DNA from: Candidatus Micrarchaeota archaeon
GTDB lineage: Archaea > Micrarchaeota > Micrarchaeia > Micrarchaeales > Micrarchaeaceae
Assembly (NCBI GenBank): GCA_021785805.1
Contig: JAJYEJ010000001.1
Span: forward strand, 1,940-65,939
Length of the DNA: 64,000 bases
Reading direction: 5' to 3'
The notes under the pieces were generated by a model that made no database searches, was not told the origin of the DNA, and saw only the letters and a list, made by a program, of their open reading frames with translations. Each line of letters begins with the position of its first letter. The stretch's first letter is position 1. Below, piece after piece: positions 9,807-64,000 of this stretch. Both the position numbers and the translations under genes were made by a program.

Positions 9807-10980
9807 CGCTCTTCCTGGTCTCCTCTTTCCTCAAAAGAGCTTCGTAGACGCCCTGCGGGACCAGCTTCTGTACAACGCTCTGCCACCCTTCGAGCTTCAG
9901 CATGCTCTTGACGAAGCTTGAGCTCACTATCTCAAGTTCAGGAGGTGGCGAAAGCGACATGTGGACAAGCCTGTCCTCTTCCTTGGTGGCCTTGTCTTCT
10001 ATGTACATGCTTGTTGCCAACACTATCCTTCGTTCCTCTAGCGAATCGGACTGGTCTCTGGTGCCCCTAAGGAGGTATCTTGCGCCGACGGACTTTGCGA
10101 AGTCTGCGGTGAACCTGTTGCCAAGCCCCACTACAGTCACGTTAGGCATGTCCTTCGTGAGCTCCTTTAGCATTGCTATCCTTTCCTCTTCCGAGAACAT
10201 AGGCGTCTTCGAGGAATTCTGCGCTACCGCGATTATCAGCTTCGTGAATATCCTTGCACCCTTCCTTGCGACCCATGCGTGCCCTATGGTAGGCGGATCG
10301 AAACTGCCGGCGTATACCGCAACGGTCTCCGCCGCATTAGCCCTCAGCTCGGCGACGGTGCGCTTTATATTCGACTTCGCCTTCTCCTCATACCTGTCGG
10401 AGAAGAACTGCGTCCTGAAGAGCTGCTTTCTTTCGCCGAACTCGGCAAGGACATTGGCTCTTTCAGCATTGAACGGCTTTCTAGGCACCCACCAGAACTC
10501 GGCTGCGATTTCCCTATCGTACTTGTCGAATATGTCTGGTGGCTGCCCGAGTATGGACAGGTCTATGTCCAGCATGTATTTTGTATCGTTGTCGTCCACC
10601 GGGGCGTTGCGGTGCTTTGTCGCAAGAATTAACTCCCTTACCCTTTCGGCGAAGTCCCTGCTCAATCCGGCACCCATTGCCATCTCCACTGCGAGTTCGG
10701 CGCTCTTCTGCTCGTTCTCCTGACTCCTTGTATCGTAAACCACGTCATGGAACCATAATGCGAATTCGACAGCGAGTGGGTTCTCGAGCTTGTCCCTTAC
10801 AAGATCAAGGTTCTTGAGGCACTCCCCTACATGCGTCATGTTGTGATACGCCCTTCCGGTAGAGTAGGCGTTGTATATAGCCTGGAAAACCGGTATCGGG
10901 TCGCCTTCTGCGGAAATCCCTTTCCACAGTGACATCCACCTCCCCTTTAGGGTGACACTATGCTGGTGTTGTGCTTCCAT
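9799..10980 (-). CDS. coaD: fusion protein: N-terminal HD-superfamily domain plus C-terminal bacterial-type phosphopantetheine adenylyltransferase
   Basis: The N-terminal half has YHNMTHVGECL...FHDVVYD (HD phosphohydrolase-like). The C-terminal half has VAVYAGSFDPPTIGH...LLRGTRDQSDSLEE...VSSSFVKS, the GSFDPxTxGH / RG.R / ISSS signature of bacterial CoaD. Confidence 0.75.
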   Translation of the reverse strand: MEAQHQHSVTLKGRWMSLWKGISAEGDPIPVFQAIYNAYSTGRAYHNMTHVGECLKNLDLVRDKLENPLAVEFALWFHDVVYDTRSQENEQKSAELAVEMAMGAGLSRDFAERVRELILATKHRNAPVDDNDTKYMLDIDLSILGQPPDIFDKYDREIAAEFWWVPRKPFNAERANVLAEFGERKQLFRTQFFSDRYEEKAKSNIKRTVAELRANAAETVAVYAGSFDPPTIGHAWVARKGARIFTKLIIAVAQNSSKTPMFSEEERIAMLKELTKDMPNVTVVGLGNRFTADFAKSVGARYLLRGTRDQSDSLEERRIVLATSMYIEDKATKEEDRLVHMSLSPPPELEIVSSSFVKSMLKLEGWQSVVQKLVPQGVYEALLRKEETRKSGA

Positions 10981-45052: not shown

Positions 45053-46168
45053 TTAGGAGTTTGCTTTCTTTCTCAGGAAGAATCTCTTTATTATCAAGGA
45101 TGGGCTGTCCATATCCCCGTATTTTCCCAGAAAACGCTCTGCACCCATCATCTTCGAGAGCCTGACCATCCACTCCATCTCCCTCTCGCCCAAGTATGAG
45201 TAATATGAATGTACAAGCCTGTGCAGGCCGAGATCGAGGCCATACCTCTTCCTCCACAGCTTCTCATACACCTCCAGGGACTTGTCCTGTGTCATATGTT
45301 CACGGATGACCCTGGCTGCGATATGCGCGCATGCTATCCCGAATATTATGCCTCCGCCTGTTGTGGCTTTGACCTGACCGGCCGCATCACCCACGAGCAT
45401 CACGTTCCCTTTCACTGTAACTGCCCTCTGGCTCACTGGAATCATGCTTGCGTATCCTGCGGTCTTCCTAGCGTTTCCTATTATCGGAGAGAGCATGTCC
45501 GAAGCGATGAACTGCTCGAACGCCTTGGTGCTCGTCTTCTTGGCTCTCCCGCTTACCCCTATGCCTACCTCTACCTTGGTGCCTGAATAAGGCACGTACC
45601 ACCCGAAGAACCTGTTGGCAATCTTGTTCGAGAAATATAGTCCGACCATGTGTGTGTCTTCCACTGCGGCTCCCGAGTACTCGGCTTTGTAGGTCAGGAT
45701 GTGCTCTTTTATCGGAGGGAATCCTATTGCGCTCGCCACGGTAGACACCGCCCCATCCGCACCTATGACGACACTGTTCTCATCGGAGCTGAACCTTCTG
45801 ACGGTCTCCCTGTCGACGCGCCTGCCCAGCTCGATCTCGGCTCCGGCCGCTCTCGCCTCCTCCGCACAGATATCGGCGAGCTTTCCCCTGTCCAGGACGT
45901 ATGCCTTGGTCGCAGGGGACTTTATGCGCATAGACTCCTTCCCGGCACGCAGCGTTGCTCCGTCAAGGGTGTTTACAATGGCGCCGTGGTAGTTTATGCC
46001 GGTCCTTGAAAGCCCGTCTTTTGAGAATATGCCTGACGCCTTCGCGGTGTTGTCCGAAACCTTCTTTTTCGAATCGTATACGACCGTGTCTACCCCATGC
46101 TTGGCTAACACCTTCGCAAGCGAAAGGCCGATAACTCCCGCACCTATTATGATGGCTTTCTTCTGCAT
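45053..46168 (-). CDS. geranylgeranyl reductase family flavoprotein
   Basis: FAD fingerprint AIIIGAGVIGLSLA and GDAAGQVKATTGGGI. I prefer the internal start ATG 46168 (or 46183), because the 46243 start would run into the divergent promoter. Confidence 0.8.
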   Translation of the reverse strand: MQKKAIIIGAGVIGLSLAKVLAKHGVDTVVYDSKKKVSDNTAKASGIFSKDGLSRTGINYHGAIVNTLDGATLRAGKESMRIKSPATKAYVLDRGKLADICAEEARAAGAEIELGRRVDRETVRRFSSDENSVVIGADGAVSTVASAIGFPPIKEHILTYKAEYSGAAVEDTHMVGLYFSNKIANRFFGWYVPYSGTKVEVGIGVSGRAKKTSTKAFEQFIASDMLSPIIGNARKTAGYASMIPVSQRAVTVKGNVMLVGDAAGQVKATTGGGIIFGIACAHIAARVIREHMTQDKSLEVYEKLWRKRYGLDLGLHRLVHSYYSYLGEREMEWMVRLSKMMGAERFLGKYGDMDSPSLIIKRFFLRKKANS

Positions 46169-46258
46169 ATCATCCACGAACATGCCATTTGGGCCAATCC
46201 CGAGACGGGTGCCCCATGTATTTTGATTTATAAACCTTTCCATTTAAATATTAAGTGT

Positions 46259-46666
46259 TTGGTCGGTGATAAGACGAGTGCGAAAAATGGAAATCCAGCA
46301 AAAACCCCGAAATCTTCGAAATCCCCAAAACCTTCGAACACGGCGTGGGACGGCGGCGATATACCTGTTCCATCAATAAAGATACAAAATATAGTCGTAA
46401 GCGCAGATTTGCATGCGGTTATAGACCTATATGCGCTTTCTAAGGAGGTCAAGGCTGTCGATTATGAGCCAGAGCAGTTCCCGGGAGCGATATTCAAGAT
46501 CGCCGAACCAAAAGCGGTAATCATACTTTTCAAGAACGGAAAGATGATCTGCACAGGAACAAACACCGAGGCGAATATCAGACGTGTCCTCGACTATGCT
46601 GCAAAGGTAATCTCGAAGTACGTGATAGAGGTCACACCAGTACAGGCTTCGCCGCCGAAGAAGTAA
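46259..46666 (+). CDS. single-repeat TATA-box-binding-protein-domain protein with a Lys/Pro/Ser-rich N-terminal tail
   Basis: IKIQNIVVSADLHAVIDLYALSKEVKAVDYEPEQFPGAIFKIAEPKAVIILFKNGKMICTGTNTEANIRRV is one complete TBP repeat. There is only one copy. No in-frame ATG exists, so the start is TTG 46259 or 46223. TATA-like tttataaa and atttaaatatt lie just upstream. Confidence 0.65.
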   Translation: MVGDKTSAKNGNPAKTPKSSKSPKPSNTAWDGGDIPVPSIKIQNIVVSADLHAVIDLYALSKEVKAVDYEPEQFPGAIFKIAEPKAVIILFKNGKMICTGTNTEANIRRVLDYAAKVISKYVIEVTPVQASPPKK

Positions 46667-46670
46667 TCGC

Positions 46671-47822
46671 TTATTTCTCGTATTCTTCCCTTATCTTTAC
46701 AGTCTTAGCCAGCTTCTTGTCGAATACCCTGAAGAAGTTCGCCCATGAGTATTTTTTCCTTACGGTGGCTATCCCCTTCTTTCCCATCTCCTTCGCGATT
46801 GATGGGTGCTCGGCGACATACTGCATCTTCTCGGCCATCTCCTCCTCGCTGTTTACCAGAAATCCTGTCTCTCCGTTATCGACCGTCTCCTTCGGCCCTC
46901 CCTCATTGACCGCTATTATAGGCTTCCTGCTGGACATCGCTTCCATAGGTATTAGCCCATAATCCTCGTTGATTGGGGTATACAGTATCGCAGTGGCCCT
47001 TGCCATCAGGTCCCTGTACCTGTCCTCTTCATAGTCGGTTATTATCTGCACGTCTCCGGTCTTCTTCGCGGCGTCGACCACCTTGAGGTAGTAGTTGTAG
47101 TAGAACCTGTCTTTTGAAAGTGCGCCCCCCAGCACCAGTTTGTATCCTTTCTTTTTCTTCTTGAACCTCTTGAACGCCTCTATAGCGTAGAGCTGCCTCT
47201 TGTTCGGGGAGAATCTTGACGGATAGAAGAAGTACTTGTCATTTCCATCGTTCCTGTATGTCTCGTATTCGATGCCCCCGTTTAGGACCTCAGCATCTTC
47301 CCTTCCGAAGTACTTCACAATCCTTGACCTGGTGTTTTCGCTGTTCGCGAGTATGACCTCGGCCTTCTTCGCCATCCTTTGGTCTATGAACCTCACTGCA
47401 CCGGCACCAGCTATGTAGACCGGCTTCTGATAGCCCTTCTTCAATGAGAGCCGGTACCGGTACATGTCCCATACCTCCCTCAATGGAGTGTGGCAGTACC
47501 AGAGCACTCCAGGGTTCTTGTTCCTTATCCAATGGCTTGGGGCTATATGCGCATTTATCACATCGTAGTCCTCCGTGATCTTGAACCCGTAGAATGAAAG
47601 CCCGTAGTTCAGCCCCTGAGCCGCCCTCCCATAAGGCAGGAGCCGGAACGCCTTGTTCTTCCCTATCACTTCCACATCAAGGTCCTTGAATTCGGGGAAT
47701 GTGCCTTCTGCGTCGTATTCCGCGGTGTATATCGGAGTATCGTAATGCTGGGCGATCTTGAGAAGCACACGCTCAGCCCCTCCTTTCAGGGTAAGGTTCG
47801 CCTGAGTCATGACTACCTTCAT
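46671..47822 (-). CDS. glycosyltransferase, GT4 (group 1) family
   Basis: EDYGLIPMEAMSSRKPIIAVNEGGPKETV is the E-x7-E region. 383 aa. Confidence 0.85.
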   Translation of the reverse strand: MKVVMTQANLTLKGGAERVLLKIAQHYDTPIYTAEYDAEGTFPEFKDLDVEVIGKNKAFRLLPYGRAAQGLNYGLSFYGFKITEDYDVINAHIAPSHWIRNKNPGVLWYCHTPLREVWDMYRYRLSLKKGYQKPVYIAGAGAVRFIDQRMAKKAEVILANSENTRSRIVKYFGREDAEVLNGGIEYETYRNDGNDKYFFYPSRFSPNKRQLYAIEAFKRFKKKKKGYKLVLGGALSKDRFYYNYYLKVVDAAKKTGDVQIITDYEEDRYRDLMARATAILYTPINEDYGLIPMEAMSSRKPIIAVNEGGPKETVDNGETGFLVNSEEEMAEKMQYVAEHPSIAKEMGKKGIATVRKKYSWANFFRVFDKKLAKTVKIREEYEK

Positions 47823-47851
47823 CGCACCACGGATACTCTTGTTGCGCTATT

Positions 47852-47860
47852 ATTATATAA
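47852..47860 (+). promoter_or_regulatory. TATA box for srp54
   Basis: attatataa lies about 34 nt upstream of ATG 47890. Confidence 0.4.
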
Positions 47861-47889
47861 CTTTAAGTAACGATAATAGTATCCCGACG

Positions 47890-49218
47890 ATGGGATACTC
47901 ATTAGGAAGGAAGACTGATGGCATGGACCTGGGAGAGGGGCTAAGGAAGGCCCTGGCAACGCTCACACGTTCTACGATAATAGATGCGAAGACGATAAGA
48001 GAGTTCAACAAGGAACTGCAGAAGACCCTTATCAGCGCTGACGTAGAGGTAGAGTTGGTGCTGAGATTTACCAGGGTCATAGAAGAGAAAGCGCTTAAGA
48101 GCAAACCTCCCGCAGGTCTCGCCCCTACCGACTACATAACGAACATCGTGTACGATGAGCTCGTAAGGCTGATGGGCCAGAGCTATGTACCGAAGCTGCA
48201 GAAAGGAAGGGTCCTCCTTATGGGTCTCTACGGCTCGGGAAAGACCACCACCGCAGCCAAGCTCGCCAAGTTCTATCAGGATAGAGGCATGAGCGCAGGT
48301 GTCATCTGCTGCGACGTCTCCAGGCCGGCTGCGTATGCGCAGCTTGAGACCCTGGCGAAGCAGGCCAATGTGGGATTCTTCGGGATAGATGGAGAGAGGG
48401 ATCCCGTCAAGATAGTCAAGAAGGGGCTTGCCGCGCTTAAGGATAAGAATGTTGTGATCTGCGACACTAGCGGAAGGAGCGCCCTGGATGATGCGCTCAT
48501 AGAGGAATTGAAGAGGGTAGCGGACGCATTCGAGCCGGAGGAAAGGATTCTCGTGATAAGCGCAGACATAGGGCAGGTGGCAGGGAGGCAGGCGAAAGCG
48601 TTTGACGAAGCGGTGAAGATATCGGGGGTAGTGGTAACGAAGATGGATGGCTCGGGCAGGGGAGGCGGGGCGTTGAGCGCGACTAACGCGGCAAACGCCA
48701 AGGTCATGTTCATAGGGATGGGAGAGAAGCTAGCTAATATAGAGCCATACGATTCTGAGAAGTTCATAGGCGGGCTGCTTGGCATGCCTGACATAGCGTC
48801 CTTGGTGTCCCATGTCCAGAACGCGATAAAGGAGGCCAACATCAAGCCAGAGGAGATGGAGCTTGACGACCTGAGTTACGACTCATTCTATACGCAGCTC
48901 AAGGCGATGGGCAGCATGGGCCCCCTCAAGAACATATTCGGCATGATGGGCATGCCAGACGCGCCGAAGGAGGTGATGGAGCAGAGCGAGGACAAGCTGA
49001 GGAAGTATAAGGTAATCATCGCATCGATGACAAGGGATGAGAGGAAGAACGGAAGGCTCCTCCATGAGCCTGGGAGGATAGGCAGGATAGCGAAGGGTGC
49101 CGGAGTGTCGGAGAGGGATGTCCACGCGTTGGTATCCGATTTCAACAAGATGAAAAAGATGTTCGACTCGATGAAGAACGACAGGAACTTCAAGAAGAGG
49201 TTTGCTAAGTTCATGTGA
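47890..49218 (+). CDS. srp54: signal recognition particle protein SRP54
   Basis: GLYGSGKTTT, DTSGR and a Met-rich M domain. The start is ATG 47890 (or 47923); the track start 47809 overlaps the divergent gene. Confidence 0.93.
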   Translation: MGYSLGRKTDGMDLGEGLRKALATLTRSTIIDAKTIREFNKELQKTLISADVEVELVLRFTRVIEEKALKSKPPAGLAPTDYITNIVYDELVRLMGQSYVPKLQKGRVLLMGLYGSGKTTTAAKLAKFYQDRGMSAGVICCDVSRPAAYAQLETLAKQANVGFFGIDGERDPVKIVKKGLAALKDKNVVICDTSGRSALDDALIEELKRVADAFEPEERILVISADIGQVAGRQAKAFDEAVKISGVVVTKMDGSGRGGGALSATNAANAKVMFIGMGEKLANIEPYDSEKFIGGLLGMPDIASLVSHVQNAIKEANIKPEEMELDDLSYDSFYTQLKAMGSMGPLKNIFGMMGMPDAPKEVMEQSEDKLRKYKVIIASMTRDERKNGRLLHEPGRIGRIAKGAGVSERDVHALVSDFNKMKKMFDSMKNDRNFKKRFAKFM

Positions 49219-55964: not shown

Positions 55965-56882
55965 GTGGGCGTAGCGTGGGAACTATCTGACGAAGAACTC
56001 GTTAAATGGCTTAAACTAACCGTTGTCAAAAGTGGCCTTGGCCCGGTTAGAATTCAGAAGCTTTTTACAACCTTTAAAAATCTAAGCGGCATTTACAACG
56101 CAACAAGAGCAGAGTTACTTGATAGCAGGATAGTTAACGAAAAGATAGTTGACAGTTTCGAAAAGCTAAAATCTGCGAATGATAGTAATTTTTACCAGCT
56201 AATCGAAACGTGCCGTGAAAATAACTTTAAGGTTTTTACCTATATAAATAAAGATTATCCGGAAAAGCTCAAAAATATCCCATCGCCGCCGCTGACCTTA
56301 TATCTTTCAGGCGACGAAAAAATAATCAGCAGTTTCCCATCAATTGGGATAGTAGGGACGCGTGAACCATCCAAACAGGCAAGAGATTTGGCCTACAGCT
56401 ATAGCAAATCGCTCAGTGATCGTAATATAACCGTAATTAGTGGAGGAGCAATAGGGATTGATACTGCTGCGCATTTTGGTGTTTTAGACTCTAAATATAA
56501 GAAAACAATATGTATTCTAGCATCTGGATTTTTACAGCCTTATCCGCCAGAAAACAAAGAACTTTTTAAAAATATAGTTGAAGCGGGGGGATTACTTATA
56601 AGTGAGAATTCACCAAATTTCCCTGGCACTAAAATATCATTAGTTCAAAGGAACAGAATAACTTCTGGTTTGGCTGACGCTATCTTCATAGTTGCTGCAA
56701 AGGGGACTGGAGGTGGGCTAGAGCAAGTCAAAATAGCAAGTAAACAGCGCAAACCAATCTTCTGCACAAAACTTAATCCTGACATAATACCGAATGAAGG
56801 AATAAAGATAGCCATAGAGCAATACAAAGCCATAGAAGTAGAAAATGTTGATCAGCTGGTAAACTACATACACTCTGACTGA
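55965..56882 (+). CDS. dprA: DNA processing protein DprA/Smf
   Basis: YPEKLKNIPSPPLTLYLSG, IGIVGTREPS, VISGGAIGIDTAAH, YPPENKELF, LLISE and LVQRNRITSGLADAIFIV follow the DprA Rossmann-domain consensus. GTG start with GGTG upstream. Confidence 0.85.
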   Translation: MGVAWELSDEELVKWLKLTVVKSGLGPVRIQKLFTTFKNLSGIYNATRAELLDSRIVNEKIVDSFEKLKSANDSNFYQLIETCRENNFKVFTYINKDYPEKLKNIPSPPLTLYLSGDEKIISSFPSIGIVGTREPSKQARDLAYSYSKSLSDRNITVISGGAIGIDTAAHFGVLDSKYKKTICILASGFLQPYPPENKELFKNIVEAGGLLISENSPNFPGTKISLVQRNRITSGLADAIFIVAAKGTGGGLEQVKIASKQRKPIFCTKLNPDIIPNEGIKIAIEQYKAIEVENVDQLVNYIHSD

Positions 56883-57118
56883 TGACTGCACAAAACCTCC
56901 GACGGAAGCCAAAAATGTCATATTTTTGTCGTCGAGGTTGTGCACACAAGGTAAACCACTGCGCAGCTGGCTGCACTGCACTTACTGCACTCAAACCTTG
57001 TTAGAAAAGCCGGTCTGACTGCAGTAAAACTCCGTCGAAGCCAAAAAATACCCGATTTTTGTCGACGGAGCACTGACAACAAGGGAAACGAATGCAGTTT
57101 CCGTGTGCAGTCAGTCAG
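56874..57118. repeat. duplicated ~75-nt hairpin modules, ACTGCA iterons and flanking inverted repeats (non-coding core of the element)
   Basis: Module A (56874-56951) and module B (57014-57085) align over their full length. Each contains a long hairpin (56894-56939; 57030-57070). ctgactgatgactgcaca (56875-56892) is inverted as tgtgcagtcagtcag (57104-57118). Confidence 0.7.
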
Positions 57119-57316
57119 TTCCTCGCCTGCTCCGCAGGCTCGTCCCGTCGCTTTTGCCCCGCCTGAAAGCGACCCAAGCTTCTTGATGAAACTTCTTTCC
57201 AAGAAATTTCCATGGGTGCCCTTAAACTGCTAGTTGGCTAGCTTAAACGAGCGTTGGCGAGAACGGAACCGCCCCTCACGTTGGTGAGGGCTGCGGTGGA
57301 GTAAAGGGCAGAGATT

Positions 57317-59071
57317 TTATGTTAAAATAGAGAGAAAAGCAGCAATTACGGTTCTTTTTCTTTCTGTTATGAATGTTGTAAAATCATCATTCAAAAGAGC
57401 ATCGAAGGCAGAAGACGATATAAGATGAGTCTCTAACCTATCACGCATTTGTCTTTCTGTGAGCCCAAATTCACGCATAATCTCATTAATGTATTGTGAT
57501 GGTTTCTTTGCTCGGATGTAATTTCTGTTTGTGTCAGCATCCAGCAGTGTCATATTAAGGATTGAATTGATTTGGTCATCAGATGCTCCGAACTCTCGCG
57601 CTCTGGACTCTGGGAAAATATGATGTGCATCTATTGTGTTAAATGTCGTTATTGTATTCTGCACAAAATCTCGACCGCCTTTTAAGGCTATTAGACATAG
57701 GATGCCTTTGTAGAGTGCATCGGATCCAGTAACTAATTGTTCTAAAGTAATCACGTTGGGATTCGCTAGATTCGCTTTAGCCTCTATAACAACTTGTGGG
57801 AGACTGCTGTTATCGGTAAACCATCTATTAACTGCGTTATAATCGATATATGTTTGTGTATCTGTTGAGCCTGCGTATGCATGTGTTATTATTGCCGACC
57901 AGTACCATTTTATAATCTTTTTGTTCATTTCAGCTCTTGCTCTTCCTTTTGCTTTGGAGAAAAGAGCCGCTAGTATCGGTAATGATTGCCTAAACGGAAC
58001 AAGATTTCTAGTTAGAACACCAAACCCGTCATTAACGCTACGGGTTTCTTTCAACATTTTGAGCATAGACTCAGTGTCTCCTACTGCTGCAGTCCAGTCA
58101 GTTTCAAATTTTCTTGAAGATAAATCAAGAAGTTCATCACTTTTAACGGGCTTGCCTCTTTTAAGAGCTAAAGTTTGAACAATGTACAATGGAAACCTAT
58201 CATTTCCTTCGCTAAATTCCTTTATCAGAGCATTGTTCCTAGCAGAAGTCTTCCATAATTCGCGAGGTTTTATATTATGTTTTATCATACGAGCGTTTAA
58301 CAAATCAAACGTCGTCAGATCAAGTCCCATAGTATTGAGTTTCTCAAATATTTTTGCAACATTACCTATGCTGATTTCGGAAGGTAGTTTTATTATGGGA
58401 ATTTCGAAATCTTTGAGCAGAAACTCAAGATGTTTCGAAACAGAATCAGAAAGCTTGTTTGCGTTTTCAGGAGTAGAATGTTCTACCGTCTTTAAAAATG
58501 CTTCGAAATCATAACACCATCGACTTACTGTTTCCAGTTCTTTGAGTGGGAATGTTCGTGTAGCAAATTGATTTTGTTTGTCATTAAGATTTTTTCTTGT
58601 TATCTCATCATCAGTATAAGAAACAACTAATTTTTCATCCTCTACCTTTGCTTTTCCATCGAGTTTTAACATTTCTTTAATGTCGATAAAGAACCTTATC
58701 GGTTTTTTCATGCCCCATAACGGTATGTTCGGAGCTTTTATAACATAATAAAGTGCCGATACTCTTTGCTGTCCATCTAAAATCAAATATCTTGGGTTTG
58801 TTGGCAATCGCGTTCCATATATTGGTCCGAAGGCCATATCAGTAGTTCTATCAATAGACCAGAATAACAAAGAACCAATATAGTAGCCTCGTAGCATTGA
58901 GACTAGAAGGTCAGTAACATTAGATCTTCGCCACTCAAATTCTCTTTGAAATTCAGGAATGCCCAAATCATCGTTTTCTATATAAGCCAGAATGTCTTTG
59001 ACTCTTTTTTTCTCGGGTTCTTCCAATCTCATTAATGTACTTGGTGTTATTCCTGGCATATAGACCGCCAC
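57317..59071 (-). CDS. DUF262/DUF1524 protein (GmrSD-like type IV restriction endonuclease family)
   Basis: The N-terminus has IPEFQREFEWR...ILDGQQRVSALYY (DUF262, ParB-like). The C-terminus has DAHHIFPES...LLDADTNR (DUF1524, His-Me finger). An alternative ATG start is 59059. Confidence 0.8.
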   Translation of the reverse strand: MAVYMPGITPSTLMRLEEPEKKRVKDILAYIENDDLGIPEFQREFEWRRSNVTDLLVSMLRGYYIGSLLFWSIDRTTDMAFGPIYGTRLPTNPRYLILDGQQRVSALYYVIKAPNIPLWGMKKPIRFFIDIKEMLKLDGKAKVEDEKLVVSYTDDEITRKNLNDKQNQFATRTFPLKELETVSRWCYDFEAFLKTVEHSTPENANKLSDSVSKHLEFLLKDFEIPIIKLPSEISIGNVAKIFEKLNTMGLDLTTFDLLNARMIKHNIKPRELWKTSARNNALIKEFSEGNDRFPLYIVQTLALKRGKPVKSDELLDLSSRKFETDWTAAVGDTESMLKMLKETRSVNDGFGVLTRNLVPFRQSLPILAALFSKAKGRARAEMNKKIIKWYWSAIITHAYAGSTDTQTYIDYNAVNRWFTDNSSLPQVVIEAKANLANPNVITLEQLVTGSDALYKGILCLIALKGGRDFVQNTITTFNTIDAHHIFPESRAREFGASDDQINSILNMTLLDADTNRNYIRAKKPSQYINEIMREFGLTERQMRDRLETHLISSSAFDALLNDDFTTFITERKRTVIAAFLSILT

Positions 59072-59095
59072 ATTTGGATAAAAATTGTGTTTTGG

Positions 59096-59909
59096 CTATT
59101 TATATGTTTCTCTAAAGTTGTTATTTGTGAATACAAATTCGATTGACCGATATAAATCCTCTTTGTCTTTAGCGATATATCGCATCGTAGTTTCCGGTTT
59201 GCAATGTCTCGCGAATCTACTCGTCAGAACTACATTACCATTCGTCGATTTAGCAAATTTAGTAACCGCATAGTGGCGCAGACTATGTGTCGTTAATCTA
59301 TGTAAAGCACGTTCTTTCTTATTCGGATAACTTTCTTCTGAATAGCCGTATATTGCATTGAGTCCAGCCTTCTGTACCGTTTCTCTGAATACCTTTCTAA
59401 CATAGTTCTGTTCTATGTACTGCTGTCTGTTGTGGTTATTGTCGTTCTCTTTGAAGAAGATATGTCCATCCGCTGCCTTTATCCCATCAGTATTCTTGTT
59501 GATAAACTCTATCGTATCTCTAAAGAGATCCACAGGTATCAACAAAGAATCCAATTTTCTTGACTTTTCGCTCATTATCGTCAGTTCCCTCTTCTCGAAG
59601 TCGATGTTGCTTACGTGCAACTTTGTGGCTTCTCCGATTCTGAGGCCCAGAAACGCCTGGAACTTGAAAAGAAGCCTGAACTTGTCGTTCTTCACGTTTC
59701 TGAGGAAATGCTGCAGCTCCATTTCCGTAAAACCCTTGTTTATGGTTCCATACTTTGTCTCTCTCGGCCTCCTGAACCTTCTTTCATAATTTTCTCTCAA
59801 GGTCTTTCTCAGCTGCTCAATCTGCCCTTTCGAGAACTGCCTGCTTGATGCGTCTACTTGCTCTAAAACCCTTCCGAAATCGAACCCGACATTCCCTCTC
59901 TTAAGCTTT
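59096..59909 (-). CDS. Int(C): catalytic portion of the SSV-type tyrosine integrase
   Basis: Catalytic residues lie in LRIGEA (R), HSLRH (HxxR), ARH and MRY (Tyr). The frame is open upstream of the track start (TTG 59800), through attR, to a stop at 59984-59986. Confidence 0.8.
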
Positions 59910-59944
59910 AGGCGGGCCCGGCGGGATTTGAACCCGCGACCTAC
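59910..59944. repeat. attR: att copy forming the 3' part of tRNA-Arg
   Basis: Identical to 54920-54954. Confidence 0.9.
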
Positions 59945-60025
59945 AGCTTTCTCCTTCTTTTGATTAAACCTTTTTCAAAAGTTCATTAGAAGGCTGCCGC
60001 TCTATCCAAGCTGAGCTACGAGCCC
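59911..60025 (-). tRNA. tRNA-Arg (anticodon UCU) with a 38-nt intron at the canonical 37/38 position
   Basis: Hand-folded: acceptor GGGCTCG/CGGGCCC, D arm GCTC..GAGC, anticodon stem GCAGC/GCTGT with loop CTTCTAA, T arm GCGGG-TTCAAAT-CCCGC. The intron segment AGAAGG pairs with CCTTCT around the anticodon, as expected for a bulge-helix-bulge substrate. Confidence 0.85.
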
Positions 60026-63831: not shown

Positions 63832-64000
63832 ACTCCAGTCGATGCTGCTGGAGGACACTGCTATCAGATTTCGACAGCCATGCAAGTCAGCTCAACGGCT
63901 TCGTTGGGCGGCGTACGGCTCAGTAACACGTAGTCAATCTACCGTAGAGAGGCGGATAACCTCGGGAAACTGAGGCTAATACACCATAAGCTAGAGCATC
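63832..64000 (+). rRNA. 16S rRNA, 5' end (partial, continues beyond window)
   Basis: actccagtcgatgctgctggaggacactgctatcag...agccatgcaagtc...ggctcagtaacacgt...ggataacctcgggaaactgaggctaatac aligns with the conserved archaeal 16S 5' domain. Confidence 0.9.

What the first reader, a model, noticed from the sequence alone, without database searches (positions are those of the whole stretch)
46223..46666. Half-size TBP: a single TATA-binding-protein repeat preceded by a basic Lys/Pro/Ser tail
Seen:
- Residues from about 51 to 135 of the ORF (IKIQNIVVSADL...DYEPEQFPGAIFKIAEPKAVIILFKNGKMICTGTNTEANIRRV...) form one complete TBP repeat. It is closest to the second repeat of canonical archaeal TBPs.
- The N-terminus is a low-complexity tail (KTSAKNGNPAKTPKSSKSPKPSNTAWDG).
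- The ORF ends about 10 aa after the repeat.
- The divergent upstream gene starts less than 100 bp away, so a frameshifted first repeat has no room.
- There is no in-frame ATG. The start would be TTG at 46259 or 46223.

Established: functional TBPs are pseudo-dimeric, with two repeats forming the saddle.

Inference: there are three possibilities.
- A homodimerising mono-domain TBP, the hypothesised ancestral state.
- A TBP-domain paralogue with another nucleic-acid role.
- A decaying fragment.
Basis: partly seen in the sequence, partly recalled or inferred. Interest (0 to 1): 0.7.

Follow-up and report, generated by a model that had tools for sequence, protein, structure and literature searches.

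The report
One-lobe TATA-binding protein of Micrarchaeota
This is a real, strongly conserved gene for half of a TATA-binding protein, found across a whole group of tiny archaea (Micrarchaeota); it most likely pairs with itself to do the job of the normal two-lobed factor, so the long-assumed "ancestral homodimer" form of this core transcription factor can be tested directly.

Summary
The ORF encodes exactly one TBP lobe (Pfam PF00352, E=5e-24), flanked by a basic, poorly modelled N tail and a 12-aa C tail. Neighbouring genes on both sides leave no room for a second lobe, and none exists in any frame of the 64-kb window.

It is not a fragment. About 117 of the best 120 database relatives are also one-lobe proteins. 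Twenty-seven independent loci show the same architecture, and group A shares synteny. Against orthologues, pN is 0.06-0.14 with synonymous sites saturated (dN/dS about 0.04-0.06 or less).

The DNA-kinking Phe pair and the TFB-binding Glu-x-Glu are invariant.

One-lobe proteins and both lobes of the unusually symmetric two-lobe TBPs of sister lineages (Anstonellales, Iainarchaeota) form one clade (NJ bootstrap 91-96%). That clade sits outside the canonical N-lobe and C-lobe groups, so lobe number changed within it. The direction of change is unresolved.

Best reading: a homodimeric general TBP. Dimerisation, and the absence of a canonical TBP elsewhere in the genome, were not tested.

The start is probably not TTG. 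It is more likely a conserved ACG at 46274, three bases after a GGTGAT Shine-Dalgarno.

I found no description of this family in the searchable literature.

The parts
46274..46666 (+). Probable coding sequence of the one-lobe TBP (130 aa plus TAA stop), counted from the conserved ACG initiation codon
   Evidence: ORF and frame. Start assigned by homology. Pfam TBP hit. Family alignment.
46274..46276 (+). ACG, the likely non-canonical start codon
   Evidence: The homologous codon, 3 nt after the SD, is ACG in 12 of 27 loci, ATG in 12 and TTG in 3. In L001, L003 and L085 an in-frame stop lies immediately before the ACG. L001, L008 and L016 and L081 and L082 have no canonical start upstream of the core.
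46265..46270 (+). GGTGAT Shine-Dalgarno-like element
   Evidence: A perfect GGTGAT lies 3 nt before the ACG. The same [G]GTGAT + 3-4 nt + ATG layout precedes many other genes in this window: 30 of 71 ORFs have an SD-like element, against a 4.7% background. ACG-start orthologues have the better SD matches, mean 5.4/6 against 4.2/6 for ATG-start ones.
46227..46254 (.). Two palindromic TATA-like elements (TTTATAAA 46227-46234; TTTAAATATTAA 46243-46254) in the divergent promoter region, overlapping the annotated start of the upstream gene
   Evidence: Read from the sequence. Similar A/T elements sit at matching positions in orthologues. Assigning them to the TBP promoter is inference: if the TATA centre lies about 26 nt before the transcription start, the 5' UTR would be roughly 17 nt and contain the SD.
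46274..46375 (+). N-terminal Lys/Pro/Ser-rich basic tail (34 aa, net charge +3), predicted disordered
   Evidence: pLDDT 53-70 for residues 1-30. Across 27 loci the tails are 4-71 aa, mostly net positive (+1 to +7, up to +23), and only the first residues, (M/T)-[SPA]-A-K, are conserved.
46376..46627 (+). The single TBP lobe (84 aa: strand S1 to helix H2)
   Evidence: There are 36 invariant columns among 41 family members, including N, the two Phe, E-P-E and the FKNGK.ICTG motif.
46628..46663 (+). Short C-terminal tail (12 aa, EVTPVQASPPKK)
   Evidence: Its length (0-27 aa) and sequence vary in the family.
45053..46243 (-). Divergent FAD-dependent, geranylgeranyl-reductase-like gene. It sets the upstream boundary and is a syntenic neighbour.
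   Evidence: Pfam FAD_binding_3 / GGR_cat. Conserved next to the half-TBP in L001-L003, L007, L008, L011 and L081-L086.
46671..47822 (-). Convergent GT4 glycosyltransferase gene. It sets the downstream boundary, 5 nt after the TBP stop.
   Evidence: Pfam Glycos_transf_1. Synteny.
47809..49218 (+). SRP54 gene, a syntenic marker used as the yardstick for conservation
   Evidence: Pfam SRP54 domains. It is 65-73% identical to orthologues, against 71-87% for the TBP core.

Best explanation
The gene encodes the general transcription factor TBP of this organism in a one-lobe form. The organism is a member of Micrarchaeota, probably Micrarchaeales/Micrarchaeaceae.

**Proposed mechanism:**
1. Two copies associate through the same surfaces that hold the N and C lobes together in ordinary TBP. 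This gives a perfectly symmetric saddle.
2. The saddle inserts four Phe (two per subunit) into a TATA box.
3. Each stirrup offers the Glu-x-Glu patch that binds TFB.
4. Promoter direction would then be set by TFB and the BRE, not by TBP.
5. The variable basic tails probably add unspecific DNA affinity.

**Shown:** the one-lobe architecture, strong purifying selection, invariant functional residues, and membership of a clade whose two-lobe members are made of the same lobe type.

**Inferred:** homodimerisation, TATA and TFB binding, and that this is the only TBP in the genome.

**Translation:** it probably starts at a conserved weak ACG codon behind a strong Shine-Dalgarno. This suggests the amount of protein is held down or regulated.

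**Evolution:** most likely a secondary return to one lobe, for instance by recombination between two similar lobes. Re-duplication of a one-lobe gene in the sister lineages is the alternative.
For: **Architecture**
- Single PF00352 lobe.
- No second lobe in any frame of the window.
- No second lobe within +-10 kb in the 21 one-lobe GTDB loci.
- 117 of the best 120 relatives are one-lobe proteins of 90-174 aa.

**Selection**
- pN 0.06-0.14 against pS 0.70-0.87.
- Core 71-87% identical, while neighbouring GGR, GT and SRP54 are 41-73%.
- 36 invariant columns among 41 sequences.

**Functional residues**
- Both kinking Phe align with those of solved TBPs (QF and LF).
- The E-P-E motif corresponds to C.L3.2/C.L3.4, the TFB/TFIIB-contacting glutamates described in PMC7221094. 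It is invariant.

**Fold**
- pLDDT 87; 1.1-1.3 A to one lobe of TBP structures.

**Orthology with general TBPs**
- Two-lobe TBPs of Anstonellales and Iainarchaeota have N and C lobes 56-74% identical to each other, against 33-54% elsewhere. Both lobes carry the signature EYEPEQFPGAI...LFKNGK.IC.
- All one-lobe proteins plus both lobes of these proteins form one clade: 91% of 200 and 96% of 500 NJ bootstraps.
- Their N lobes do not score as canonical N lobes.

**One gene per genome**
- No assembly, locus-tag prefix or contig length recurs among one-lobe hits, or between one-lobe and two-lobe hits.
Against: - No whole genome could be scanned, so a canonical TBP elsewhere is not excluded.
- Dimerisation was not modelled, because no multimer tool was available.
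- The first monomer model, built on a shallow alignment, was poor (pLDDT 57). That says nothing either way.
- No expression data were found.
- Known one-lobe TBP-domain proteins (Halobacterium TbpA, the Thermococcales proteins) coexist with a normal TBP and are not the general factor (PMC3597702).
- A weak ACG start could also fit a low-abundance accessory protein.
Confidence: 0.65

Rival explanations
1. Accessory one-lobe paralogue. The genome also has a normal two-lobe TBP elsewhere. This protein would then be a regulator: a competitor for TATA boxes or TFB, a partner that caps a TBP lobe, or a binder of other nucleic acids. That is the situation reported for Halobacterium TbpA and the Thermococcales single-TBP-domain proteins.
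For: - Precedent in PMC3597702.
- Only 64 kb of this genome was visible.
- The GTDB scan was truncated.
- A weak ACG start would fit a low-copy factor.
Against: - No co-occurring TBP was seen in any of 27 loci or among named hits.
- Conservation is higher than for SRP54.
- All DNA-binding and TFB-binding residues are invariant.
- The nearest relatives are the only TBPs seen from their sister lineages in these searches, and they are built from the same lobe type. The one-lobe gene therefore looks like the orthologue of the general factor, not a side branch.
- Annotation pipelines already count it as the TBP (JGI names).
Confidence: 0.2
2. Split TBP. The protein heterodimerises with a second, different one-lobe protein encoded elsewhere in the genome. 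That would restore an asymmetric N/C pair.
For: - Split genes are known in other DPANN archaea (background knowledge).
- Two sequence groups of one-lobe proteins exist. Group A leans towards the C lobe (+7 to +15 bits) and group B is neutral (-5 to +5 bits).
Against: - Groups A and B never come from the same assembly.
- Named hits never share a locus-tag prefix.
- No second lobe lies in the window or within 10 kb in any locus.
- The exhaustive phmmer search shows no further half-size family among its best 150 hits.
Confidence: 0.07
3. Primitive relic. The one-lobe gene descends directly from the pre-duplication ancestor of all TBPs and was never two-lobed.
For: - The lobe is intermediate between canonical N and C lobes.
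- Its clade lies outside both canonical groups in the NJ tree.
Against: - The clade is confined to Micrarchaeota and Iainarchaeota. Other DPANN (Woesearchaeota, Pacearchaeota), other archaea and eukaryotes share differentiated N and C lobes.
- An intermediate sequence is also what a homodimer that must serve both roles would converge on.
- An 84-column NJ tree cannot place the root.
Confidence: 0.07
4. Pseudogene, truncated fragment or assembly artefact.
For: - No ATG or GTG start codon.
- Half the length of a normal TBP.
Against: - dN/dS about 0.04-0.06 or less.
- 27 independent assemblies show the same architecture, and group A shares synteny.
- The flanking genes are intact.
- The start context is conserved.
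Confidence: 0.01

Closest known systems
Canonical archaeal TBP (two lobes; e.g. PDB 1mp9, 1pcz/1ais, 2z8u)
   Same: - Same lobe fold (rmsd 1.1-2.2 A).
- 37-50% identity per lobe.
- Same DNA-kinking Phe pair per lobe.
- Same Glu-x-Glu TFB patch as the C lobe.
   Different: - One lobe per polypeptide instead of two.
- The lobe is neither N-type nor C-type.
- Basic tails, where I recall acidic C-terminal tails in several characterised archaeal TBPs (not checked here).
- Probable ACG start.
Symmetric two-lobe TBPs of Anstonellales (Micrarchaeota) and Iainarchaeota/Diapherotrites (e.g. L020-L028, P0087, P0406)
   Same: - Same clade (91-96% bootstrap).
- Same signature EYEPEQFPGAI...LFKNGK.IC in every lobe.
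- About 50% identity to the window lobe.
   Different: They keep two covalently linked lobes that are 56-74% identical to each other. They act as natural 'fused dimers' of this lobe type.
Halobacterium TbpA (monopartite TBP)
   Same: A single lobe that clusters with genuine TBP lobes (PMC3597702).
   Different: As reported, TbpA is very similar to the full-length TBPs of the same species and is not essential. The present family is conserved across a whole lineage, sits at a fixed chromosomal locus among housekeeping genes, and no full-length partner was seen.
Thermococcales single-TBP-domain proteins (e.g. P. furiosus NP_578195; Brindefalk et al. 2013)
   Same: About 95-aa proteins consisting of one TBP-like domain.
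   Different: Those proteins are strongly diverged from TBP, form their own sequence cluster, and coexist with a normal TBP. The window protein scores 84 bits on the TBP Pfam model and keeps all TBP signature residues.

Membership tests
TBP (Pfam PF00352; general transcription factor) | TBP lobe sequence and fold | tested here: met
   PF00352 E=5e-24 over the full profile. PDB phmmer E=7.6e-36. AF2 model at 1.1-1.3 A to TBP lobes.
TBP (Pfam PF00352; general transcription factor) | Two tandem lobes in one polypeptide forming the saddle | tested here: not met
   Only one lobe. The flanking genes leave no room, and no second lobe exists in six frames of the window or of 21 related loci.
TBP (Pfam PF00352; general transcription factor) | Pair of DNA-kinking Phe per lobe and central Asn/Val/Thr DNA contacts | tested here: met
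   F69 and F86 (130-aa numbering), N39 and V41 are invariant and align with the corresponding residues of solved TBPs. Their roles are taken from PMC7221094 and established TBP structural work.
TBP (Pfam PF00352; general transcription factor) | C-lobe Glu-x-Glu (C.L3.2/C.L3.4) that contacts TFB/TFIIB | tested here: met
   Y-E65-P-E67-Q-F is invariant in the family. The definition of the signature comes from PMC7221094.
TBP (Pfam PF00352; general transcription factor) | Binds TATA boxes, recruits TFB and RNAP, and is the essential and only such factor | not testable with these tools
   Needs biochemistry and whole-genome scans. TATA-like elements are mildly enriched 25-60 nt upstream of ORFs in the window, so the organism probably uses TATA promoters.
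Halobacterial TbpA-type truncated paralogue | Near-identical to a full-length TBP in the same genome; dispensable | tested here: inconclusive
   No full-length TBP was seen in the window, the loci or the named hits, but no complete genome was scanned. Strong lineage-wide conservation argues against dispensability.
Thermococcales monopartite TBP-domain proteins (Brindefalk group) | Highly diverged from TBP, forming a separate sequence cluster | tested here: not met
   The window protein is 37-50% identical to genuine TBP lobes and passes the TBP Pfam threshold by 60 bits.
RNase HIII / DNA-glycosylase TBP-like N-domains | TBP-like domain fused to a catalytic domain | tested here: not met
   The protein consists of the lobe plus short low-complexity tails only.

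The most novel reading that the evidence does not exclude
A whole archaeal lineage (Micrarchaeales and relatives) initiates all transcription with a homodimer of a one-lobe TBP. That would be a living version, most likely by reversion, of the pre-duplication state postulated for TBP. Within Micrarchaeota and Iainarchaeota the gene has switched between one-lobe and two-lobe forms more than once. In addition, the gene is translated from a conserved ACG codon, which would be a rare case of a maintained non-canonical start in archaea.
Probability: 0.5. Interest if true: 0.85.

Novelty: new variant of a known kind. Interest (0 to 1): 0.78.

Why it matters
TBP is the textbook case of a protein that arose by internal duplication of a homodimerising unit, but that unit has remained hypothetical. 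A 2026 paper still draws a 'monopartite prototype' by analogy with RNase HIII (PMC12917281).

**What this gives experimentally.** A natural one-lobe TBP that keeps every DNA-contact and TFB-contact residue is a direct system for three questions:
- Does a symmetric saddle bind and bend TATA DNA?
- Can TFB/BRE alone set promoter direction?
- What did lobe asymmetry add?

**A built-in comparison.** The sister lineages, with nearly identical N and C lobes, provide natural fused and unfused versions of the same lobe.

**Practical consequences.**
- Gene callers mis-start or mislabel this gene. Many entries are called 'hypothetical protein' or begin inside strand S1.
- Genome surveys that count 'TBP present' miss the difference.
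- The conserved ACG start is a further test case for start-codon selection in archaea.

Tried and rejected
1. **First AlphaFold run.** The alignment held only close relatives and gave pLDDT 57, with S1/H1 below 50. This was uninformative, and a more diverse alignment fixed it. I do not read the poor first model as evidence that the lobe needs a partner.
2. **Expression evidence.** I searched the supplementary tables of the Ca. Micrarchaeum harzensis co-culture paper for TATA, TBP, PF00352 and K03120 and found nothing. The files are stored truncated.
3. **Co-occurrence of a canonical TBP.** I compared assemblies, locus-tag prefixes and contig lengths across and found no overlap. The lists are truncated (best 80 or 120), so this is weak evidence.
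4. **Number and direction of one-lobe/two-lobe transitions.** Lineage-specific N+C clusters appear in the NJ tree but have only 16-58% bootstrap support. This is unresolved.
5. **In-frame stop test for the ACG-to-core segments**. It is circular as I built it, so I do not use it. The argument rests on positional conservation, stops immediately upstream, and the lack of alternative starts.
6. **Sigma-70 promoter scanner.** Not used, because it does not apply to archaea. My own TATA hexamer count is based on small numbers.
7. **Ten literature searches.** None found a paper describing this family. The nearest statements are general: single-lobe versions exist in archaea.

Full report
**1. What is in the sequence**

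ORF 46223..46666 (+) is real. It contains one complete TBP lobe and nothing else recognisable. Pfam PF00352 matches once: E=5e-24, residues 52-133, profile positions 2-85 of 85. Against PDB sequences the best match is Sulfolobus TBP 1mp9 (E=7.6e-36), and the single query lobe aligns to both lobes of every TBP.

With a diverse alignment AlphaFold gives a confident model: mean pLDDT 87, core above 96, N-terminal 30 residues 53-70. Foldseek then returns 44 TBP chains as the top 44 hits, each superposing one lobe at 1.1-1.3 A over about 80-83 residues.

The gene is boxed in on both sides. A divergent FAD/geranylgeranyl-reductase-like gene reaches 46243, and a convergent GT4 glycosyltransferase ends at 46671. 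A six-frame HMM scan of the whole 64-kb window finds no other TBP lobe. The window is archaeal: it holds the 5' end of an archaeal SSU rRNA at 63832-64000 and housekeeping genes nearby (GluRS, FKBP, SRP54, DRG-type GTPase).

**2. It is a conserved family, not a fragment**

- **Relatives.** Of the best 120 database relatives, 117 are one-lobe proteins of 90-174 aa. Where named, they come from Micrarchaeota, Micrarchaeia or Micrarchaeaceae MAGs; some are labelled Marsarchaeota.
- **Conservation.** In an alignment of 41 members the 84-aa core has 36 invariant columns, while both tails vary freely.
- **Independent genomes.** A scan of one genome per GTDB species gave 21 loci with a single lobe. 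None had a second lobe within 10 kb in any frame.
- **Sequence groups.** The window belongs to group A (L001-L011). The other groups are group B (L012-L017), an Iainarchaeota-like pair (L019, L024), and L018 and L052.
- **Synteny.** Group A shares the order reductase(-) | TBP(+) | glycosyltransferase(-) | SRP54(+). This also holds on a 0.94-Mb and a 1.21-Mb contig.
- **Relative conservation.** The TBP core is 71-87% identical between these genomes, against 65-73% for SRP54 and 41-66% for the other two neighbours.
- **Selection.** Nei-Gojobori counts against eleven orthologues give pN 0.06-0.14 with pS 0.70-0.87, which is saturated. dN/dS is therefore about 0.04-0.06 or lower.

The pseudogene, fragment and assembly-error readings are refuted.

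**3. Functional residues**

- The two Phe that kink the TATA box in each TBP lobe are invariant. They are F69 and F86 in the numbering of the 130-aa protein that starts at the ACG (section 6).
- The central S1 residues N39 and V41 are also invariant.
- The stirrup reads Y-E65-P-E67-Q-F. These glutamates correspond to C.L3.2 and C.L3.4, which Ravarani et al. identify as the C-lobe-specific contacts to TFB/TFIIB (PMC7221094). They are invariant here.
- Canonical N lobes lack this motif, for example EYRPKQFPG and NFNREQFPG.

A dimer of this protein would therefore carry four kinking Phe and two TFB patches.

**4. Relation to other TBPs**

Other Micrarchaeota (Anstonellales and relatives; L020-L027, P0406 and others) and Iainarchaeota/Diapherotrites (L028, P0087 and others) have ordinary-length two-lobe TBPs. 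Their lobes are unusual in three ways:

- **Symmetry.** N and C lobes are 56-74% identical to each other, against 33-54% in the other archaea sampled. Both lobes carry the signature of the one-lobe family, EYEPEQFPGAI...LFKNGK.IC.
- **Tree position.** In neighbour-joining trees of 136 lobes (84 columns), all one-lobe proteins plus both lobes of these proteins form one clade (91% of 200 bootstraps). With a reduced outgroup set support is 96% of 500. Within it, the clade's N lobes and C lobes are never separately monophyletic (0%), and the one-lobe proteins are not monophyletic either.
- **Lobe type.** For each lobe I took its score against the canonical C-lobe HMM minus its score against the canonical N-lobe HMM.

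| Lobe set | C-lobe minus N-lobe score (bits) |
|---|---|
| Canonical C lobes | about +33 |
| Canonical N lobes | about -32 |
| Clade N lobes | +4 to +13 |
| Clade C lobes | +4 to +18 |
| One-lobe proteins | -5 to +15 |
| Window protein | +12.5 |

(All.)

In this DPANN sub-clade the N/C differentiation shared by other archaea and eukaryotes is therefore absent. Either a one-lobe ancestor was re-duplicated in some lineages, or the lobes were homogenised and one was later lost, which is easy by recombination between similar repeats. Synonymous differences between N and C lobes are high (pS 0.5-0.7), so these events are old. Bootstrap support inside the clade is too weak to count them or give their direction. 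Other DPANN have canonical lobes (Woesearchaeota, Pacearchaeota), so a secondary origin of the one-lobe state is more parsimonious than a primordial relic.

**5. Mechanism proposed**

Two subunits form a symmetric saddle. It binds the TATA box and presents identical TFB-binding stirrups, and orientation is left to TFB and the BRE. Archaeal TBP is already the more symmetric kind, and the two-lobe relatives with up to 74% identical lobes show that near-identical copies of this lobe make a working TBP.

The very high conservation fits a subunit that must satisfy the constraints of both positions at once. The basic tails contain S/T-P-K-like motifs, and L019 has a +23 tail of KKAVKKKPAA repeats. 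They probably add unspecific DNA affinity; this is inference.

Not shown:
- dimerisation;
- DNA or TFB binding;
- expression;
- that no canonical TBP exists elsewhere in the genome.

On the last point the evidence is indirect. No assembly, locus-tag prefix or contig length is shared between one-lobe and two-lobe hits, or among one-lobe hits. All those lists are truncated.

**6. Start codon**

The frame has no ATG or GTG; TTG occurs at 46223 and 46259. Orthologue comparison shows a fixed layout, [G/T]GTGAT + 3 nt + start.

- **Codon at the start position.** It is ACG in 12 of 27 loci (the window at 46274, L001-L003, L007, L008, L011, L016, L081, L082, L084, L085). It is ATG in 12 loci and TTG in 3.
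- **Frame boundary.** In L001, L003 and L085 an in-frame stop lies directly before the ACG.
- **No alternative.** L001, L008, L016, L081 and L082 have no canonical start before the core.
- **Conservation onset.** Amino-acid conservation, (M/T)-[SPA]-A-K, begins at this codon.
- **SD layout.** GGTGAT + 3-4 nt + ATG is the usual arrangement of other genes in this window: 30 of 71 ORFs, against a 4.7% background.
- **Compensation.** ACG-start genes have the best SD matches, 5.4/6 against 4.2/6.
- **TTG 46259.** It is not conserved at the homologous position in orthologues.

I therefore place the start at ACG 46274, giving 130 aa, with about 0.8 confidence. C-to-U editing of the ACG is a formal alternative.

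Gene callers cope badly with this. Some annotated family members begin inside strand S1, at a Val GTG or an Ile ATA codon.

**7. What is known**

- Brindefalk et al. 2013 describe two kinds of monopartite TBP-domain protein. Halobacterium TbpA is close to the full-length TBPs of the same species and is not essential. The Thermococcales proteins are strongly diverged and coexist with TBP.
- Ravarani et al. [quoted passage not shown]
- A 2026 paper still treats the monopartite TBP as a hypothetical prototype.
- DPANN surveys simply score TBP as present.

Ten searches found no description of a conserved one-lobe TBP in Micrarchaeota, of the symmetric two-lobe TBPs of their relatives, or of the ACG start. 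The library does not cover most subscription journals.

**8. Verdict**

The protein is a member of the TBP family by sequence, fold and signature residues. It fails the defining two-lobe architecture, so it is a new variant of a known kind.

| Reading | Probability |
|---|---|
| Homodimeric general TBP | 0.65 |
| Accessory paralogue | 0.2 |
| Split heterodimer | 0.07 |
| Primordial relic (a rival only on origin) | 0.07 |
| Fragment | 0.01 |

Interest is high, because this makes the ancestral-homodimer idea for TBP directly testable and comes with a natural comparison set.

Noticed in passing
window 46265-46276; L001, L002, L003, L007, L008, L011, L016, L081, L082, L084, L085: The codon at the Shine-Dalgarno + 3 nt position of the half-TBP gene is a conserved ACG in 12 of 27 lineages (ATG in 12, TTG in 3). 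Several of these have an in-frame stop just upstream and no canonical start available. This points to a maintained non-canonical initiation codon, compensated by a strong SD.
   Followed up: yes
L020-L028, L031, L040, L073; proteins P0084, P0087, P0406: The two-lobe TBPs of Anstonellales (Micrarchaeota) and Iainarchaeota have N and C lobes 56-74% identical to each other, and both lobes carry the TFB-binding E-x-E. The N lobes do not resemble canonical N lobes. This suggests re-duplication or homogenisation.
   Followed up: yes
L019 about 9830-10040 (N tail of its one-lobe TBP); P0377, P0260: Some clade members carry long Lys-rich, histone-H1-like tails, for example three KKAVKKKPAA repeats with net charge +23.
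   Followed up: no
P0126 (389 aa, ENA contig of 2.4 kb): SRP54 is fused in frame to the half-TBP, with sequence identical to the window's two genes. This is almost certainly a chimeric misassembly that skipped the glycosyltransferase gene.
   Followed up: partly
L032 9935-10637: A two-lobe TBP of a Micrarchaeota MAG has its C lobe split over two reading frames. This is either a frameshift from sequencing error or a gene in decay.
   Followed up: no
L080 9965-10549 (+) and 15250-15831 (-): Two near-identical two-lobe TBP genes lie in inverted orientation 5 kb apart in a Euryarchaeota MAG.
   Followed up: no
P0258 (272 aa), P0264 (702 aa): P0258 is a Methanobrevibacter-like TBP with three lobes (N-N-C). 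P0264 is a 702-aa protein with four divergent TBP lobes followed by a long unrelated C-terminal region. Either may be real or a gene-model artefact.
   Followed up: no
P0263 (127 aa): This one-lobe TBP has a first half that is group-A-like and a second half that is group-B-like. It is either an intermediate lineage or a recombinant.
   Followed up: no
L011 (JAVYSI010000001.1, labelled Methanothrix sp.); P0018 (labelled Baltobacteraceae bacterium): L011 carries the Micrarchaeota-type half-TBP together with its synteny. P0018 is a clear family member by sequence. Both sit under unrelated taxon labels, which suggests mis-binned contigs.
   Followed up: no
window 59913-60025 (-): Rfam finds a tRNA match spanning 113 nt that ARAGORN does not report. 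It is probably an intron-containing archaeal tRNA.
   Followed up: no
window 56000-60000: G+C drops to 0.39-0.41 against about 0.50 elsewhere, just upstream of the rRNA operon start. This may be a foreign island.
   Followed up: no
window 46227-46254: Two perfectly palindromic TATA-like elements (TTTATAAA, ATTTAAAT) sit in or next to the first codons of the divergent reductase gene (start 46243). That gene's GxGxxG motif begins only at about residue 33, so its true start may lie downstream at M21 or M27.
   Followed up: partly
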